Part shown: positions 995-10,403 of the stretch, one piece after another
How the letters are laid out: each line of letters begins with the position of its first letter
Numbering within the stretch: position 1 is the first letter of the stretch
Virus record (IMG/VR): IMGVR_UViG_3300010259_000015
Coordinates: 1 to 15,138 of that record
DNA: 15,138 nt
Source: a virus
Lineage: Duplodnaviria > Heunggongvirae > Uroviricota > Caudoviricetes
Strand: one strand, 5' to 3'
Made by a program: the position numbers and the translations under genes
The notes under the pieces: generated by a model
Databases searched by the model: none
What the model was told of the DNA's origin: nothing
What the model saw: only the letters and a program-made list of their open reading frames with translations

Positions 995-1023
995 TTTTAT
1001 CCAGGCAGAGGCTGATGCGCAAT

Positions 1024-1060
1024 TAAACATTGAGCGGCCATGCTGGTCGCTCAATGTTTA
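1024..1060. terminator. Perfect 13-bp inverted repeat (TAAACATTGAGCG / CGCTCAATGTTTA, 11-nt loop) between convergent genes S and the minus-strand cargo gene; putative bidirectional terminator or protein-binding palindrome
   Basis: Arms 1024-1036 and 1048-1060 are exact reverse complements; located in the 71-bp gap between the stop codons of two convergent ORFs. No clear T-run on either side, so intrinsic-terminator function is uncertain. Confidence 0.45.
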
Positions 1061-1065
1061 GAGGT

Positions 1066-1851
1066 TTATGAGTGATTTTTATTTGATGCTTTGTATTCTA
1101 CAACCTTCTTATTGGCGTAAAGGAATTTTGTATATGACAGGAATATAACCAGACCTGAAATGAAATAGATGAGGGATATTATTAATAATGCTTTTTTTTG
1201 GCTGTTATTATCTTTAATCTCCTGACTTAACCATTCCGAGTCCTCCTCGTTTAGCTGTAAGAGCTTATTGCAGGCGATCTCAGGAAGTGTGTCTTTTATA
1301 AATACGTTTCGTAGCCTCTTGCAATCGGCAAGGCTATAAGTTTTATTGAATTCAACTGTTTTATTGTTGAAGGATAAAAGAACTTTGTCACTATAAACAT
1401 AGTACATCATATTTTTATATGGTATGCCTATGGCATCTCTTACTATAGCGGATTGTTTGTTGTGTATATAACATGCGAAGAGAATATAAATAATGCTGGA
1501 CAGAATTACAATTATTGTTTTAATTATGTGTGGTGGTTTTGTTATGTCACCCCAGAAGCGAGTAAGAAAAAAATACGATGTTTTTAGTTTTCCATCAATC
1601 AGCCCCTGCTGTATCATTCTCACATCTTCGATGCCTGATACATTGATTCCGTTAATTATTTTAAATAGTTGAATGTCGCGCCATTTTTTGTCGAGCATTT
1701 TTAACTTTCTGTCTGAATACTCAAAATTGAAATGATGTGCAATAAACCTCATAAGATTACTTTTACCAAAGGTAATAAATGTTAATGCTATTAATAAAAA
1801 TAGATACAAAGAGATAAACCACCGCGCATTAGTCACATTATCACTGAACAT
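1066..1851 (-). CDS. AT-rich cargo (moron) gene encoding a 261-aa predicted three-helix membrane protein of unknown function, at the S/V (orf30) variable locus
   Basis: ATG start at 1851 (minus) preceded by a strong Shine-Dalgarno (GAGGAG, 6-nt spacer); TAA stop at 1066-1068. Strongly AT-rich compared with flanking phage genes; three hydrophobic stretches (approx. residues 11-29, 108-128, 226-248); antisense to the late operons. Confidence 0.75.
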   Translation of the reverse strand: MFSDNVTNARWFISLYLFLLIALTFITFGKSNLMRFIAHHFNFEYSDRKLKMLDKKWRDIQLFKIINGINVSGIEDVRMIQQGLIDGKLKTSYFFLTRFWGDITKPPHIIKTIIVILSSIIYILFACYIHNKQSAIVRDAIGIPYKNMMYYVYSDKVLLSFNNKTVEFNKTYSLADCKRLRNVFIKDTLPEIACNKLLQLNEEDSEWLSQEIKDNNSQKKALLIISLIYFISGLVIFLSYTKFLYANKKVVEYKASNKNHS

Positions 1852-1866
1852 TACGCTCTCCTCGAA

Positions 1867-1887
1867 TGTTGTATGGTCGTTCTACAA
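1867..1887 (+). promoter_or_regulatory. Candidate Ogr-dependent late promoter element upstream of V (TGTTGT-N11-ACAA dyad)
   Basis: TTGT(1869-1872)...ACAA(1884-1887) is a perfect dyad; resembles the TGT-N12-ACA activator site of P2/P4 late promoters (my spacing count is 11); lies about 50-65 bp upstream of the V start with an AT-rich TATATAT stretch at 1911-1917. Confidence 0.45.
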
Positions 1888-1934
1888 ATGAATCCAGATA
1901 GCATAACTTTTATATATTGTGCAATCTCACACGC

Positions 1935-6889: not shown

Positions 6890-7267
6890 GTTGTATGAGC
6901 TCTGGTGGGAGCTTACATATCTATGGCGCAGAGTAAAGCCTAATCTGACAGTTCGCTCTGTGCCAGAAGCAGACGTTGCGAACATCGAGGTGTATTAATC
7001 AACGGGGAGCTGGTCACAACTATTCGGTTTATAAACATTTTTTTCGCTTTTCTGCATTAGAGACTATTGCATTAACTGGCTAAACTATGGATGATTATTG
7101 GTGTTAGGTTGCCAATGAATTAAGGATTAACTTCTGAACTCTCTGGTTAATCTAAAAGGAATATATGTGTATCATTTTACTTTGGCTGATAATTGAGAAC
7201 AGGCTGTCAACCTATAAATTAGAAAGGTTAAATTAACTGTGTTTTCTTGGATTTACTAAGGATGAAT

Positions 7268-7888
7268 ATGGCTAAGCCTGAAATTAAATATGACAATCCT
7301 GAATTGGATGTAAATTATGATTATGTCGGAATTGTTGACGGTTTAAGTTGTGACGACAGGAAAGAATTTGGCATCACAACTGAGCTGGGAAATTTGCTGA
7401 GAAGTGCGCAATTACCTGTAAAAGAGGCGCTAGTAAATACTAAGCAGGAGCTTCTTGATGCGTTAAGCACATTCCTTAAAGATGCTATGAATGGTCAGCG
7501 TTTCATGCTCCATTTTGTAGCTCATGGAAACGAAAAAGGAATACAAATTGGTACTGACTTTGTGACTTGGGATATTTTACGTCCGCATTTGCAAGAAATC
7601 AATGTAGCAACGGAACGAACACTACTTTTGAATATGAGTACGTGTAAAGGTCTTCATGGAGTTAAGATTGTCGGTGGGAATGGTGAGTATCCTTTTTTTG
7701 GTTTAATTGGTGCGAAAGATGATTTATATGTGATTGATGCGCTAAATGCAAATAAAATAATGTATTGCAAGTGGCTTGATAACCTACCAGTTCAAAAGAT
7801 TGTTCCCGAGACAAATGCGGAACTTGGTAAGGACGTTTTGTTTAATATTTCATCTGAAGGGTTTAGGAAATTAACTAACCCTGAGTGA
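7268..7888 (+). CDS. AT-rich cargo gene at the G/FI (Z/fun) hotspot: ~206-aa protein with caspase-like (clan CD cysteine peptidase) His/Cys dyad motifs; function unknown, candidate anti-phage/exclusion factor
   Basis: ORF track starts at a TTG (7247); the ATG at 7268 follows an AAGGA Shine-Dalgarno (7257-7261) with a 6-nt spacer (an ATG at 7262 is also possible). Motifs hydrophobic strand + HG (FMLHFVAHGNEKGIQIGTD) and, 40 residues later, hydrophobic strand + C-x-G (TLLLNMSTCKG), resembling caspase SHG...GIxYGTDG and QACxG signatures. Strongly AT-rich island. Confidence 0.7.
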   Translation: MAKPEIKYDNPELDVNYDYVGIVDGLSCDDRKEFGITTELGNLLRSAQLPVKEALVNTKQELLDALSTFLKDAMNGQRFMLHFVAHGNEKGIQIGTDFVTWDILRPHLQEINVATERTLLLNMSTCKGLHGVKIVGGNGEYPFFGLIGAKDDLYVIDALNANKIMYCKWLDNLPVQKIVPETNAELGKDVLFNISSEGFRKLTNPE

Positions 7889-8073
7889 CACTTTTTCTTT
7901 CACTCATAATAATTATCAAATAGTGGATGGATTTGATGGAAATTAAGTACTTAGTCTGGTGGGATGTGTGTAAGATTAACTTCCGCTCCTCGCCCAAAGC
8001 AGACTGTCAGATTTGATAGTGTTTCGGCTATGTAAATAGTCAGTCGGAAAATGAGTTTGTACAAATCAGGACA

Positions 8074-8100
8074 GGCGGGCGAATTGCCCGCCTTTTCTTT
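8074..8100 (+). terminator. Rho-independent terminator downstream of the cargo gene / V-operon
   Basis: GC-rich hairpin GGCGGGC-gaatt-GCCCGCC (8074-8092) followed by the T-run TTTTCTTT (8093-8100). Confidence 0.8.
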
Positions 8101-8103
8101 ATC

Positions 8104-8124
8104 TGTTGTTTCATCCCCTGACCA
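8104..8124 (+). promoter_or_regulatory. Candidate Ogr-dependent late promoter element upstream of FI (TGTTGT-N11-ACCA)
   Basis: Same TGTTGT hexamer as upstream of V, followed 11 nt later by ACCA; sits just after the terminator and about 75-95 bp upstream of the FI start; SD GGAG at 8186-8189. Confidence 0.4.
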
Positions 8125-8197
8125 GCCAGGACAAATAGCATCTCATGCCCTGCACAACTGAAAATACCACTCACCCATTAACCACGGAGTTAAACGG

Positions 8198-9975: not shown

Positions 9976-10251
9976 ATGAACAAAGAAAATGTCATTACCC
10001 TGGACAATCCGGTCAAACGTGGTGAGCAGGTCATCGAACAGGTCACGCTGATGAAACCCAATGCCGGGACGCTGCGCGGTGTCAGTCTGGCTGCGGTTGC
10101 AAACTCCGAAGTCGATGCACTGATTAAGGTGCTGCCGCGCATGACGGCACCGATGCTGACCGAGCAGGAAGTCGCCGCGCTGGAACTGCCTGACCTTGTG
10201 GCGCTGGCCGGTAAGGTGGTCGGTTTTTTGTCGCCGAACTCGGTGCAGTGA
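9976..10251 (+). CDS. E: Tail assembly chaperone E
   Basis: 91-aa ORF between the tail tube and tape measure genes; length matches P2 gpE. Confidence 0.88.
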   Translation: MNKENVITLDNPVKRGEQVIEQVTLMKPNAGTLRGVSLAAVANSEVDALIKVLPRMTAPMLTEQEVAALELPDLVALAGKVVGFLSPNSVQ

Positions 10252-10403
10252 CGTTTCCGAAAAATCTGTCGGTCGATGACCTGATGGCGGATGTGGCAGT
10301 GATATTTCACTGGCCGCCATCAGAACTGTATCCCATGAGCCTGACCGAACTCATCACATGGCGCGAAAAGGCGCTCAGGCGAAGCGGAAACACGAATGAG
10401 TAA
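9976..10403 (+). CDS. E': Tail assembly chaperone E+E' fusion produced by programmed -1 frameshift at the TTTTTTG slippery heptamer (10224-10230)
   Basis: Six T then G at 10224-10230 near the end of E; the -1 frame stays open to a TAA at 10401-10403, giving about 142 aa, the size of P2 E+E'; the extension overlaps the T start, as is conserved in tail chaperone/tape-measure modules. Confidence 0.75.
10224..10230 (+). other. Slippery heptamer TTTTTTG (programmed -1 ribosomal frameshift site)
   Basis: Direct sequence observation within the last codons of E; the -1 frame downstream is open for about 58 codons. Confidence 0.75.

What the first reader, a model, noticed from the sequence alone, without database searches (positions are those of the whole stretch)
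1066..1851. Antisense AT-rich cargo gene between S and V encoding a three-helix membrane protein with a strong ribosome-binding site
This is the only backbone-interrupting gene on the minus strand. It is convergent with S across a perfect 13-bp palindrome and divergent from the V late promoter region, so it is positioned to be expressed from its own promoter in the lysogen. It has a near-consensus Shine-Dalgarno (GAGGAG, 6-nt spacer), very low GC, and three predicted transmembrane helices separating two soluble segments of about 75 and 95 aa, with no recognisable catalytic motif. Prophage-encoded small membrane proteins in such positions are often superinfection-exclusion or abortive-infection factors. 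It may correspond to a P2 orf30-type gene, but its function would still be undefined.
Basis: partly seen in the sequence, partly recalled or inferred. Interest (0 to 1): 0.65.

Follow-up and report, generated by a model that had tools for sequence, protein, structure and literature searches.

The report
P2 orf30 membrane-protein cargo gene
This is an allele of the long-known but never characterised phage P2 gene orf30, a three-helix inner-membrane protein from a small, fast-evolving family found almost only in one slot between two tail genes of P2-like prophages, and it most likely helps the lysogen exclude other phages, though that is untested.

Summary
A 261-aa minus-strand ORF (1066-1851) has GC 0.32 against about 0.55-0.60 in the flanks, a GAGGAG Shine-Dalgarno with a 6-nt spacer, three hydrophobic helices, and a hairpin shared with the end of gene S.

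It is P2 orf30 (84% aa identity to P2 Orf30, 99% to phage P24A7b). The P2 record marks it nonessential, and no paper in the searched library assigns it a function.

New here:
- The family is tiny: 44 representatives among 1.84 billion proteins.
- It is a remote relative of DUF6216.
- All 20 distant homologues found in phage or MAG loci sit antisense between gpS and gpV of P2/186-like phages. They stay AT-rich and diverge about twice as fast as the backbone proteins.
- The slot is empty in most close relatives. It sometimes holds other antisense single genes, including an ApeA-like defence gene.
- Charge bias, plus exactly two cysteines in loop 2 of all 27 aligned members, predict N-out, a cytoplasmic helical loop and a periplasmic disulfide-bonded domain.
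- No consensus promoter is present. A DUF6216 gene in the same slot of an E. coli B prophage is reported H-NS-bound and silenced.

Best reading: a non-enzymatic envelope-level exclusion or defence factor. This is unproven. Interest is moderate.

The parts
1066..1851 (-). orf30 coding sequence (261 aa plus stop), an allele of phage P2 orf30
   Evidence: ORF and translation. Amino-acid identity is 98.9% to P24A7b and 84.3% to P2 Orf30 AAD03281.1. It matches PHROG 2407 over the full length, E 2e-142. dN/dS over 19 alleles is 0.44, falling to 0.18-0.27 in the two soluble domains.
1858..1863 (-). Shine-Dalgarno GAGGAG, 6 nt before the ATG
   Evidence: Read directly from the sequence. It is conserved in all 19 alleles aligned.
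1024..1060 (.). Hairpin between the convergent 3' ends of S and orf30 (13 perfect bp within 17-nt arms); probable bidirectional terminator
   Evidence: It corresponds to P2 9397-9433, annotated 'putative rho-independent terminator for O operon'. The tool did not call it a canonical intrinsic terminator.
1866..1893 (+). Late-promoter (pV) activator binding site, inside the orf30 leader; position transferred from the P2 annotation
   Evidence: P2 feature 10239-10266 maps by ungapped alignment, with window coordinate = L001 coordinate - 501. The 83-nt orf30-V intergenic region is nearly invariant among alleles.
997..1934 (.). Whole S-V intergenic cassette (hairpin + orf30 + divergent promoter region). 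It replaces a 66-bp spacer in empty-slot relatives such as phage Wphi.
   Evidence: Alignments to Wphi lose identity just after the S stop codon and regain it at the V ATG. Slot lengths across 80 P2-like loci are.
1768..1821 (-). TM1 (aa about 11-28), following a short acidic N-terminus predicted to be periplasmic. This is the fastest-evolving part of the protein.
   Evidence: Hydropathy. dN/dS for aa 1-28 is 1.2. Family-wide N-terminal net charge is -1.4.
1528..1767 (-). Loop 1 (aa 29-108): predicted cytoplasmic helical domain carrying the family motif D-x-Q-L-F-[KR]-x-x-N-G-I-N-V...D-A...G-x-L and FFGxIG
   Evidence: Alignment A3 has G68 and G87 invariant, and G29, Q61 and D76 nearly invariant. 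Net charge is +5.0 family-wide. AlphaFold helices span 48-67, 74-86 and 91-94, with model mean pLDDT 85. dN/dS is 0.27.
1462..1527 (-). TM2 (aa about 109-130)
   Evidence: Hydropathy; AlphaFold helix 109-134.
1192..1461 (-). Loop 2 (aa 131-220): predicted periplasmic alpha/beta domain with two conserved cysteines (C177 at 1321-1323, C194 at 1270-1272), a probable disulfide
   Evidence: All 27 family members have exactly two Cys in this loop, and its net charge is about 0. AlphaFold gives four strands at 141-173 plus helices. It has the lowest dN/dS in the protein, 0.18. It is also the region that aligns with DUF6216.
1132..1191 (-). TM3 (aa about 221-240), followed by a lysine-rich cytoplasmic tail (aa 241-261, nt 1069-1131)
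   Evidence: Hydropathy and charges; K254 is nearly invariant.

Best explanation
**What it is (shown).**
- The ORF is an allele of phage P2 orf30, a nonessential, horizontally acquired accessory gene.
- It sits antisense between the tail-completion gene S and the baseplate-spike gene V.
- The cassette carries a shared hairpin at its 3' end. At its 5' end, a short divergent control region is shared with the late promoter pV.

**What it encodes (predicted).** An inner-membrane protein with three transmembrane helices:
- a short acidic N-terminus in the periplasm;
- an ~80-aa helical loop in the cytoplasm;
- an ~90-aa alpha/beta domain in the periplasm, stabilised by one disulfide;
- a lysine-rich C-terminal tail in the cytoplasm.

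**Family (shown).** It belongs to a very small, very divergent family remotely related to DUF6216. In the phage contigs recovered, the family is found only in the S-V slot of P2- and 186-like phages.

**Function (inferred).**
- It acts for the lysogen rather than for virion production.
- With no catalytic residues, the most likely mechanism is steric or binding interference at the inner membrane and periplasm with genome entry of other phages. This is superinfection exclusion in the manner of P22 SieA or T4 Imm.
- Its AT-rich DNA is a likely H-NS target, so expression is probably low or conditional.

The confidence given (0.4) is for the functional inference. The identity and anatomy parts are near certain.
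For: **Identity and synteny.**

**Accessory status.**
- The P2 record marks it 'nonessential'.
- The slot is empty (66 bp) in 50 of the 80 closest P2-like contigs, and in about 60 phage records.

**A real, constrained protein.**
- dN/dS is 0.44 overall and 0.18-0.27 in the loops.
- The match covers at least 80% of the gene in 461 of the 464 E. coli genomes that carry it.
- The AlphaFold model has pLDDT 85 and pTM 0.73.
- Invariant residues persist across sequences only 17-40% identical.

**Topology.** The family-wide positive-inside pattern, and exactly two loop-2 cysteines in 27 of 27 sequences.

**Slot restriction.**
- All 20 distant homologues found in phage contigs or a MAG lie antisense between gpV and gpS.
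- REL606 carries orf30 in one P2-like remnant and a DUF6216 protein in the same slot of its 186-like remnant.

**DUF6216 link.**
- Family member P0028 scores 28.9 bits against a gathering threshold of 27.3, over the full length.
- hhalign of the orf30 family against slot DUF6216 proteins gives 75.5% probability, E 2.4e-5.

**Host-benefit signature.** Family members are retained when the prophage has eroded:
- Pantoea L006, an orphan gene;
- REL606 L007;
- L098, beside an AAA_15/21 ATPase and a GIY-YIG protein.

**The slot carries defence cargo.** An ApeA-like gene, PADLOC E 1.4e-13, and other AT-rich antisense single genes.

**Analogy.** P22 sieA is a 3-TM inner-membrane protein. It is antisense and convergent with ejection gene 16, and it is AT-rich.

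**H-NS.** The DUF6216 gene of the BL21 P2-like prophage is an H-NS ChIP peak, and is up-regulated in delta-hns delta-stpA (bioRxiv 10.64898/2026.09.05.749240).
Against: - There is no experimental phenotype for orf30 in any paper that could be searched.
- There is no homology to any known exclusion or defence protein: PADLOC gives none, P22 SieA 0.3% probability, and YmfE/Kunado 0.1%.
- No informative structural neighbour was found.
- No recognisable promoter is present.
- H-NS binding was reported for the DUF6216 gene in the other E. coli B prophage, not for orf30 itself.
- Typical P2 defence cargo turns over without linkage to core genes (PMC13586616). This family is slot-restricted, and its divergence tracks that of gpS (rho 0.56). 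That could instead indicate a function tied to the phage's own tail genes.
- Guilt by association with one ApeA-like occupant is weak evidence.
Confidence: 0.4

Rival explanations
1. Abortive-infection membrane effector or sensor. The protein senses a phage component, through its cytoplasmic or periplasmic domain, and then oligomerises to depolarise or permeabilise the inner membrane. The infected cell is killed or arrested rather than phage entry being blocked.
For: - It is a single-gene, AT-rich, H-NS-type cargo gene. The H-NS preprint argues that silencing guards against toxic immunity genes.
- Another occupant of the slot, ApeA-like, belongs to a single-gene defence family listed in PADLOC.
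- The model has long helices continuous with TM1 and TM3.
Against: - Three TM helices and no known pore or effector domain.
- No partner sensor gene lies in the cassette.
- The strongest constraint is on the periplasmic domain. That fits an extracytoplasmic binding role better than a cytoplasmic sensor.
Confidence: 0.17
2. Lysogenic-conversion factor unrelated to phage defence. It could be an envelope or stress-physiology protein that alters host fitness, for example colicin or tailocin tolerance, envelope stress response, or colonisation.
For: - Family members are retained in eroded prophages and as orphans next to ordinary chromosomal genes.
- It is an inner-membrane protein with a periplasmic domain.
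- 464 of 5426 complete E. coli genomes carry it.
Against: - Near-exclusive association with one slot of P2-family phages.
- Very fast sequence divergence, with mean pairwise distance 0.68 against 0.25-0.38 for backbone proteins. This pattern is more typical of conflict genes.
- Other occupants of the slot look like defence genes.
Confidence: 0.15
3. The gene serves the phage's own cycle. It could be a membrane factor that modulates tail or baseplate function, lysis timing, or protection of the lysing cell and progeny from re-adsorption. That would explain why it stays next to S and V.
For: - Slot restriction across phages whose S proteins are only 42-56% identical to the window's gpS.
- Divergence of the slot protein correlates best with that of adjacent gpS: Mantel rho 0.56, p about 0.001, against 0.21-0.28 for V, J and R.
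- The control region is shared with pV.
Against: - It is annotated nonessential in P2.
- It is absent from 50 of the 80 closest P2-like contigs and 62 of 80 186-like contigs. It is also absent from viable phages such as Wphi, L-413C and 186.
- It is antisense to both late operons.
- Physical linkage alone can explain the correlation with S, and the loci compared are not independent.
Confidence: 0.08
4. Decaying or non-functional ORF: a chance open frame in AT-rich junk DNA.
For: No known domain, no consensus promoter, and dN/dS of about 1.2 in the first 28 codons.
Against: - Purifying selection acts in both soluble domains.
- The match covers at least 80% of the gene in 461 of 464 genomes that carry it.
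- The Shine-Dalgarno sequence is conserved.
- Homologues only 17-40% identical keep the same length, three TM helices, two cysteines and invariant glycines.
- The structure prediction is confident.
Confidence: 0.02

Closest known systems
Bacteriophage P2 Orf30 (AAD03281.1; PHROG 2407)
   Same: It has the same gene position, orientation and length (261 aa). Identity is 84% at the amino-acid level and 92% at the DNA level. It has the same hairpin and the same pV control region.
   Different: It is an allelic variant. Most differences fall in the N-terminus and TM1. P2 Orf30 itself has no assigned function beyond 'nonessential'.
DUF6216 (Pfam PF19723), e.g. WP_000115390.1 in the retron-Eco1 186-like prophage of E. 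coli B
   Same: - It occupies the same S-V slot, antisense and AT-rich, and is a similar size (268 aa).
- It has three TM helices and a two-cysteine loop 2.
- Profile-profile comparison over the periplasmic domain plus TM3 gives 75.5% probability, E 2.4e-5.
- One orf30-family member passes the Pfam threshold over the full length.
   Different: - The window protein itself gives no Pfam hit.
- Pairwise similarity is not significant.
- The N-terminal halves do not align between the two groups, and the REL606 protein has a longer C-terminal tail.
- DUF6216 has no known function. The only functional datum is H-NS binding and silencing in BL21.
P22 SieA superinfection-exclusion protein
   Same: - It is a prophage-expressed inner-membrane protein with three predicted TM helices.
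- The gene is antisense within the late structural region, convergent with the preceding tail/ejection gene, and AT-rich relative to its flanks.
[quoted passage not shown]
   Different: - No sequence relationship: hhalign probability 0.3%.
- SieA is 162-164 aa, against 261 aa for orf30.
- The SieA motif FxRYPxEAxxFNK is absent from the orf30 sequence.
- SieA has a mapped promoter and a demonstrated block of DNA injection. orf30 has neither.
Kunado (YmfE) of prophage e14
   Same: It is an H-NS-silenced, prophage-encoded protein with predicted transmembrane regions. It is proposed to block a step after adsorption of T5-like phages.
   Different: No detectable homology: hhalign probability 0.1% against the orf30 family and 0.6% against DUF6216. 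It sits in a different prophage and a different genomic context.
P2 cargo hotspots (old/tin 'TO' region; Z/fun region)
   Same: The orf30 locus is one of three P2 regions long noted to hold foreign genes in relatives (PMC3091744). Cargo in it is AT-rich and present or absent among near-identical phages.
   Different: Those hotspots show rapid, unlinked swapping of many unrelated systems (PMC13586616). The S-V slot is usually empty. When filled, it is dominated by one divergent family: 22 of 29 filled slots in P2-like contigs and 9 of 16 in 186-like contigs.

Membership tests
P2 Orf30 / PHROG 2407 | Full-length sequence similarity to P2 Orf30 | tested here: met
   84.3% aa identity over 261/261 residues by tblastn. 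PHROG 2407 matches at E 2e-142, positions 1-261 of 261.
P2 Orf30 / PHROG 2407 | Located antisense between tail-completion gene S and baseplate gene V | tested here: met
   The window gene order is R, S, orf30(-), V, W, J. It matches the P2 annotation base for base.
DUF6216 (PF19723) | Score at or above the Pfam gathering threshold (27.3 bits) | tested here: not met
   The window protein gives no DUF6216 hit even at E <= 10. Among 27 family members, only P0028 passes (28.9 bits, full length); four others match below threshold.
DUF6216 (PF19723) | Profile-level homology to bona fide DUF6216 proteins | tested here: inconclusive
   hhalign of A3 against A6 gives 75.5% probability, E 2.4e-5, over 115 columns covering the C-terminal half only. 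Against a single sequence the probability is 15.7%, and BLASTP is not significant.
DUF6216 (PF19723) | Shared architecture and genomic position (three TM, two-Cys loop 2, S-V slot, antisense) | tested here: met
   REL606 ECB_RS04445 lies between S and V, antisense. A further 9 DUF6216 genes occupy the slot among 80 186-like contigs.
P22 SieA-type superinfection exclusion | Sequence homology, including the conserved cytoplasmic motif FxRYPxEAxxFNK | tested here: not met
   hhalign probability is 0.3%. The motif is absent from the translated sequence. The motif itself is described in PMC10883804.
P22 SieA-type superinfection exclusion | Inner-membrane protein with about three TM helices, encoded antisense among tail/ejection genes | tested here: met
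   This rests on prediction only: hydropathy and charge bias and gene layout. Localisation was not measured.
P22 SieA-type superinfection exclusion | Blocks DNA injection of superinfecting phage without blocking adsorption | not testable with these tools
   This needs plaque, adsorption, potassium-efflux and DNA-entry assays.
Known anti-phage defence families (PADLOC-DB 2.0) | Match to any defence-protein HMM | tested here: not met
   0 families at E <= 10. The slot DUF6216 protein also gives none.
Kunado (YmfE) | Sequence homology | tested here: not met
   hhalign probability is 0.1% for the orf30 family and 0.6% for DUF6216.
H-NS-silenced prophage cargo | H-NS occupancy and derepression in an hns/stpA mutant | not testable with these tools
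   AT-richness is met (GC 0.32). ChIP and RNA-seq data exist only for the DUF6216 gene in the BL21 retron-Eco1 prophage. The supplementary tables are not held.

The most novel reading that the evidence does not exclude
The orf30/DUF6216 superfamily may be a dedicated, fast-evolving 'gatekeeper' of P2-family phages. On this reading, its periplasmic disulfide-bonded domain recognises the tail tip or membrane-insertion machinery of incoming contractile-tailed, especially heteroimmune P2/186-like, phages. It then blocks genome transfer across the inner membrane. It would stay next to S and V because it co-evolves with, or must spare, the resident phage's own tail-tip proteins. That would make it a new superinfection-exclusion family with built-in self/non-self specificity, normally kept quiet by H-NS.
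Probability: 0.15. Interest if true: 0.7.

Novelty: new member of a known kind. Interest (0 to 1): 0.42.

Why it matters
orf30 has sat in the P2 reference genome since the 1990s without a function. It is present in about 9% of complete E. coli genomes, including E. coli B REL606.

If it is an exclusion or defence protein, three things follow:
- It would add a new, sequence-unrelated family of envelope-level anti-phage proteins.
- It would give DUF6216 a function.
- It would mark the S-V slot as a third, differently behaving cargo site of P2-like phages.

It would also mean that a widely used laboratory strain lineage carries one or two silent exclusion genes. These could influence phage-sensitivity assays in hns backgrounds.

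If it has no anti-phage role, its restriction to one slot together with rapid divergence would still need explaining.

Tried and rejected
**Domain and defence libraries.** The Pfam, PADLOC and PHROG scans of the protein gave only a PHROG of unknown function. The sub-threshold DUF6535 hit covers TM1 only.

**Structure searches.**
- Foldseek against BFVD and against the PDB (the latter with the better model) found nothing at E < 0.01. The top PDB hits were claudin/TARP-like folds at E > 0.1 and TM-score below 0.2, which I treat as noise.
- The AFDB library was unavailable.

**Homology tests against candidates.** P22 SieA, YmfE/Kunado and the R18C S-V ORF were all negative.

- The search for related loci with the full family alignment failed, because no stretch was conserved enough. 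Sub-alignments worked.

**Literature.**
- The Christie & Calendar P2 review is not held.
- Searches for orf30 gave no functional study.
- Rousset 2022, the NAR 2026 P2/P4 hotspot paper and the iLund4u preprint do not describe the S-V slot.
- Supplementary tables of the H-NS preprint are not held. I therefore could not check H-NS binding at the orf30 copy itself.

**Promoter.** No credible sigma-70 promoter was found.

**The 'random moron' reading.** I considered it and rejected it, because all 20 distant homologues found in phage loci occupy the same slot.
Full report
**1. Observation**

The window is the tail-gene block of a P2-like phage: R, S, V, W, J, I, H, G, FI, FII, E, T, U, D, ogr.

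- ORF 1066..1851 on the minus strand is 261 aa.
- Its GC is 0.324 (GC3 0.355), against 0.55-0.62 in the adjacent tail genes.
- GAGGAG lies 6 nt upstream of the ATG, at 1858-1863.
- A hairpin lies five bases beyond the orf30 stop codon and 29 bases beyond the S stop codon. Its arms are 1024-1040 and 1044-1060, with 13 perfect bp extended to 17. It folds at -26.8 and -21.3 kcal/mol on the two strands, z about -5 to -6.
- Kyte-Doolittle analysis gives three hydrophobic helices at about aa 11-28, 109-130 and 221-240.

The exception is a recognisable promoter. The scan found none upstream, and a relaxed search gave at best 8/12 matches with 19-nt spacers.

**2. Identity**

- Megablast finds the region in 21 phage records, all Peduovirus or P2-like: 99.5% identity to P24A7b and 92.1% to P2.
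- In the P2 record the ORF is orf30, product Orf30, marked 'nonessential'. It is flanked by the putative O-operon terminator, which is the hairpin, and by the activator-binding site of the late promoter pV.
- By ungapped coordinate transfer, the pV activator site is window 1866-1893. That is only 15-42 nt upstream of the orf30 start codon.
- Protein identity to P2 Orf30 is 84%.
- The protein matches PHROG 2407 (unknown function) end to end. It matches nothing in PADLOC and nothing above threshold in Pfam.
- In the papers searched, orf30 appears only as 'unknown', and its locus as one of three P2 regions where foreign genes occur in relatives (PMC3091744 and PMC6823313). No functional study was found.

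**3. It is a real, constrained gene**

- 464 of 5426 complete E. coli genomes carry it, always on the chromosome. The match covers at least 80% of the gene in 461 of them.
- Across 19 distinct alleles, dN/dS is 0.44, against 0.024 for S and 0.19 for V.
- Constraint is uneven: 0.27 in loop 1, 0.18 in loop 2, and about 1.2 in the N-terminus plus TM1.
- The 83-nt region between orf30 and V is almost invariant among alleles, as expected for the pV control region.

**4. Family**

- The word-indexed search found only five clusters.
- An exhaustive HMMER search of 1.84 billion representatives found 44 proteins, about 25 of them full length at 249-271 aa.
- In the 27-sequence alignment, members are 17-41% identical to the window protein outside the close P2 alleles. 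They keep the three helices, and G68, G87, C194 and I212 are invariant. They share a loop-1 motif (D-x-Q-L-F-[KR]..N-G-I-N-V....D-A) and a second cysteine (C177) that the aligner shifts by two columns in three sequences.
- Every one of the 27 has exactly two cysteines in loop 2.
- Family-wide net charges are -1.4 at the N-terminus, +2.4 and +2.0 on the loop-1 flanks, +0.4 and -0.3 on the loop-2 flanks, and +2.2 after TM3.
- Together these predict the topology: N-terminus out, loop 1 cytoplasmic, loop 2 periplasmic with a disulfide, and C-terminus in.
- With the deeper alignment, AlphaFold gives pLDDT 85 and pTM 0.73. The model has helices in loop 1 and a four-stranded sheet plus helices in loop 2.
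- No structural neighbour is significant in the PDB or BFVD.

**5. Link to DUF6216**

- One family member (P0028) scores 28.9 bits against Pfam DUF6216, whose gathering threshold is 27.3, over the whole length. Four others match below threshold.
- E. coli B REL606 has two P2-family prophage remnants.
  - The one at yegR-yegQ carries orf30, 99.6% identical in DNA to the window copy.
  - The 186-like one, which carries retron Eco1, has an annotated 'DUF6216 family protein' of 268 aa. It is antisense and sits exactly between S and V.
- The REL606 DUF6216 protein also has three hydrophobic segments and two loop-2 cysteines.
- A profile of 15 such proteins aligns with the orf30-family profile at 75.5% probability (E 2.4e-5). 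The alignment covers the periplasmic domain and TM3.
- I therefore treat orf30 as a remote relative of DUF6216, not a member by Pfam's own criterion.

**6. Genomic behaviour**

- Among the 80 IMG/VR contigs with the most similar gpS, the S-V spacer has these states:
  - 66 bp, empty, in 50 contigs;
  - orf30 in 22 contigs;
  - a different AT-rich antisense single gene in 7 contigs (a 357-aa protein with hydrophobic segments in its C-terminal half, and a 268-aa soluble protein);
  - one contig with a frameshifted V.
- Compared with Wphi, the whole intergenic segment from just after the S stop to the V ATG is replaced.
- Among 80 contigs of the 186-like lineage, 62 slots are empty and 9 hold DUF6216. 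Seven hold other antisense single genes. One of these is a 584-aa protein matching ApeA in PADLOC at E 1.4e-13.
- Searching with sub-alignments of the distant family members recovered 19 viral contigs and one Enterobacter MAG.
  - In all 20, the homologue lies between gpV and gpS, antisense to R, S, V, W, J and I.
  - In all of them the gene has GC 0.30-0.39, against 0.42-0.59 for the rest of the locus.
- Mean pairwise distance is 0.68 for the slot protein, against 0.25-0.38 for backbone proteins.
- The slot protein's distances correlate best with those of adjacent gpS: Mantel rho 0.56, p about 0.001. The loci compared are not independent, so this is only indicative.
- There are exceptions to the slot rule.
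  - A Pantoea homologue lies immediately after int, at the end of a 186-like prophage.
  - A near-identical site in another Pantoea keeps the gene but has lost the prophage.
  - A few homologues lie next to non-phage genes.
- DUF6216 genes also persist in heavily eroded prophages. One sits beside an AAA_15/AAA_21 ATPase and a GIY-YIG protein.

**7. Expression**

A 2026 preprint (bioRxiv 10.64898/2026.09.05.749240) reports three H-NS ChIP-seq peaks in the BL21-AI P2-like prophage, over the retron RT, the Ndt effector and 'the DUF6216 gene'. All three are up-regulated in delta-hns delta-stpA.

By position, that gene is the slot protein of the Eco1 prophage, not orf30 itself. orf30 has the same composition and layout. 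Low or conditional expression under H-NS control is therefore the more likely state.

**8. Mechanism**

*Shown:*
- gene identity;
- accessory status;
- purifying selection;
- family size and slot restriction;
- persistent AT-richness.

*Predicted:*
- membrane topology and the periplasmic disulfide.

*Inferred:*
- The protein works for the lysogen at the envelope.
- The invariant positions are glycines, one cysteine and one isoleucine, so there is no sign of a catalytic site. The most parsimonious activity is binding or occlusion.
- The best-constrained part faces the periplasm, which phage tail tips and ejection proteins traverse.
- The closest functional analogue is P22 SieA. It is a three-TM inner-membrane protein encoded antisense and convergent with ejection gene 16, and it blocks DNA delivery by interfering with ejection proteins (PMC10883804). 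There is no sequence relationship.

Approximate weights for the explanations are:

| Explanation | Weight |
|---|---|
| Entry-blocking exclusion | about 0.4 |
| Abortive-infection membrane effector | about 0.17 |
| Non-defence lysogenic conversion | about 0.15 |
| Role in the phage's own cycle | about 0.08 |
| Non-functional ORF | about 0.02 |

The remainder is left for something not considered.

**9. Novelty and score**

- The ORF itself is already catalogued, so the finding is not a discovery of a new element.
- Four results are new and testable:
  - the delimitation of the family;
  - its remote tie to DUF6216;
  - the predicted topology;
  - the slot behaviour, which differs from the fast unlinked swapping described for the main P2 hotspots (PMC13586616).
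- A specialist would not be surprised that orf30 is a candidate exclusion gene.
- The slot restriction combined with rapid divergence is mildly unexpected.
- The experiments are simple, and E. coli B strains already carry both paralogues.
- Interest is moderate, 0.42.

Noticed in passing
window 6890-8197 (ORF 7247..7888, + strand): The G-FI slot, which holds Z/fun in P2, contains a second AT-rich insert (GC 0.32-0.40). It holds a sense-strand ORF of 208-213 aa. Pfam gives a sub-threshold caspase-domain hit (Peptidase_C14, 17.2 bits against a threshold of 21.4, residues 41-93). PADLOC gives none. It may be a single-gene caspase-like cargo.
   Followed up: partly
L135 (IMG/VR 2541047812_000004), S-V slot: In one 186-like phage contig the S-V slot holds an antisense 584-aa protein matching the ApeA defence family (PADLOC PDLC02157, E 1.4e-13). 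The slot can therefore carry a member of a known defence family.
   Followed up: partly
L030, L036, L048, L051, L084 and L037, L046 (P2-like); L129, L130, L131, L161, L166, L196 (186-like): Other S-V slot occupants are all antisense single genes: proteins of 357, 268, 253, 228 and 449 aa, several with hydrophobic segments. The two P2-lineage inserts have GC 0.335-0.34. None matches PADLOC or passes a Pfam threshold.
   Followed up: partly
L007 and L008 (E. coli B REL606, NC_012967.1): REL606 carries two P2-family prophage remnants. Each has a member of the orf30/DUF6216 superfamily in its S-V slot. The orf30-bearing remnant has lost its capsid genes and most of S, but keeps orf30 intact and carries an ABC-three-component system in the TO region.
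   Followed up: partly
L003 and L006 (Pantoea spp.): A 22-24% identical family member sits directly after int (8-nt overlap) at the end of a 186-like prophage. In another strain, the same chromosomal site keeps the gene alone, with no prophage. This is an alternative cargo position and an example of retention after prophage loss.
   Followed up: no
L113 6803-7012; also L100, L114, L116, L110: Some S-V slots carrying a family member have 1.0-1.8 kb of extra DNA. In L113 the extra segment includes a short stretch 28% identical to gpV, possibly a partial duplication or recombination scar.
   Followed up: no
window 997-1934 versus L009 (Wphi) 654-719: Empty-slot phages have a different 66-bp S-V spacer with its own GC-rich hairpin (GCCGCCGG...CCGGCGGC). 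The pV control region therefore travels with the orf30 cassette rather than being ancestral backbone.
   Followed up: no
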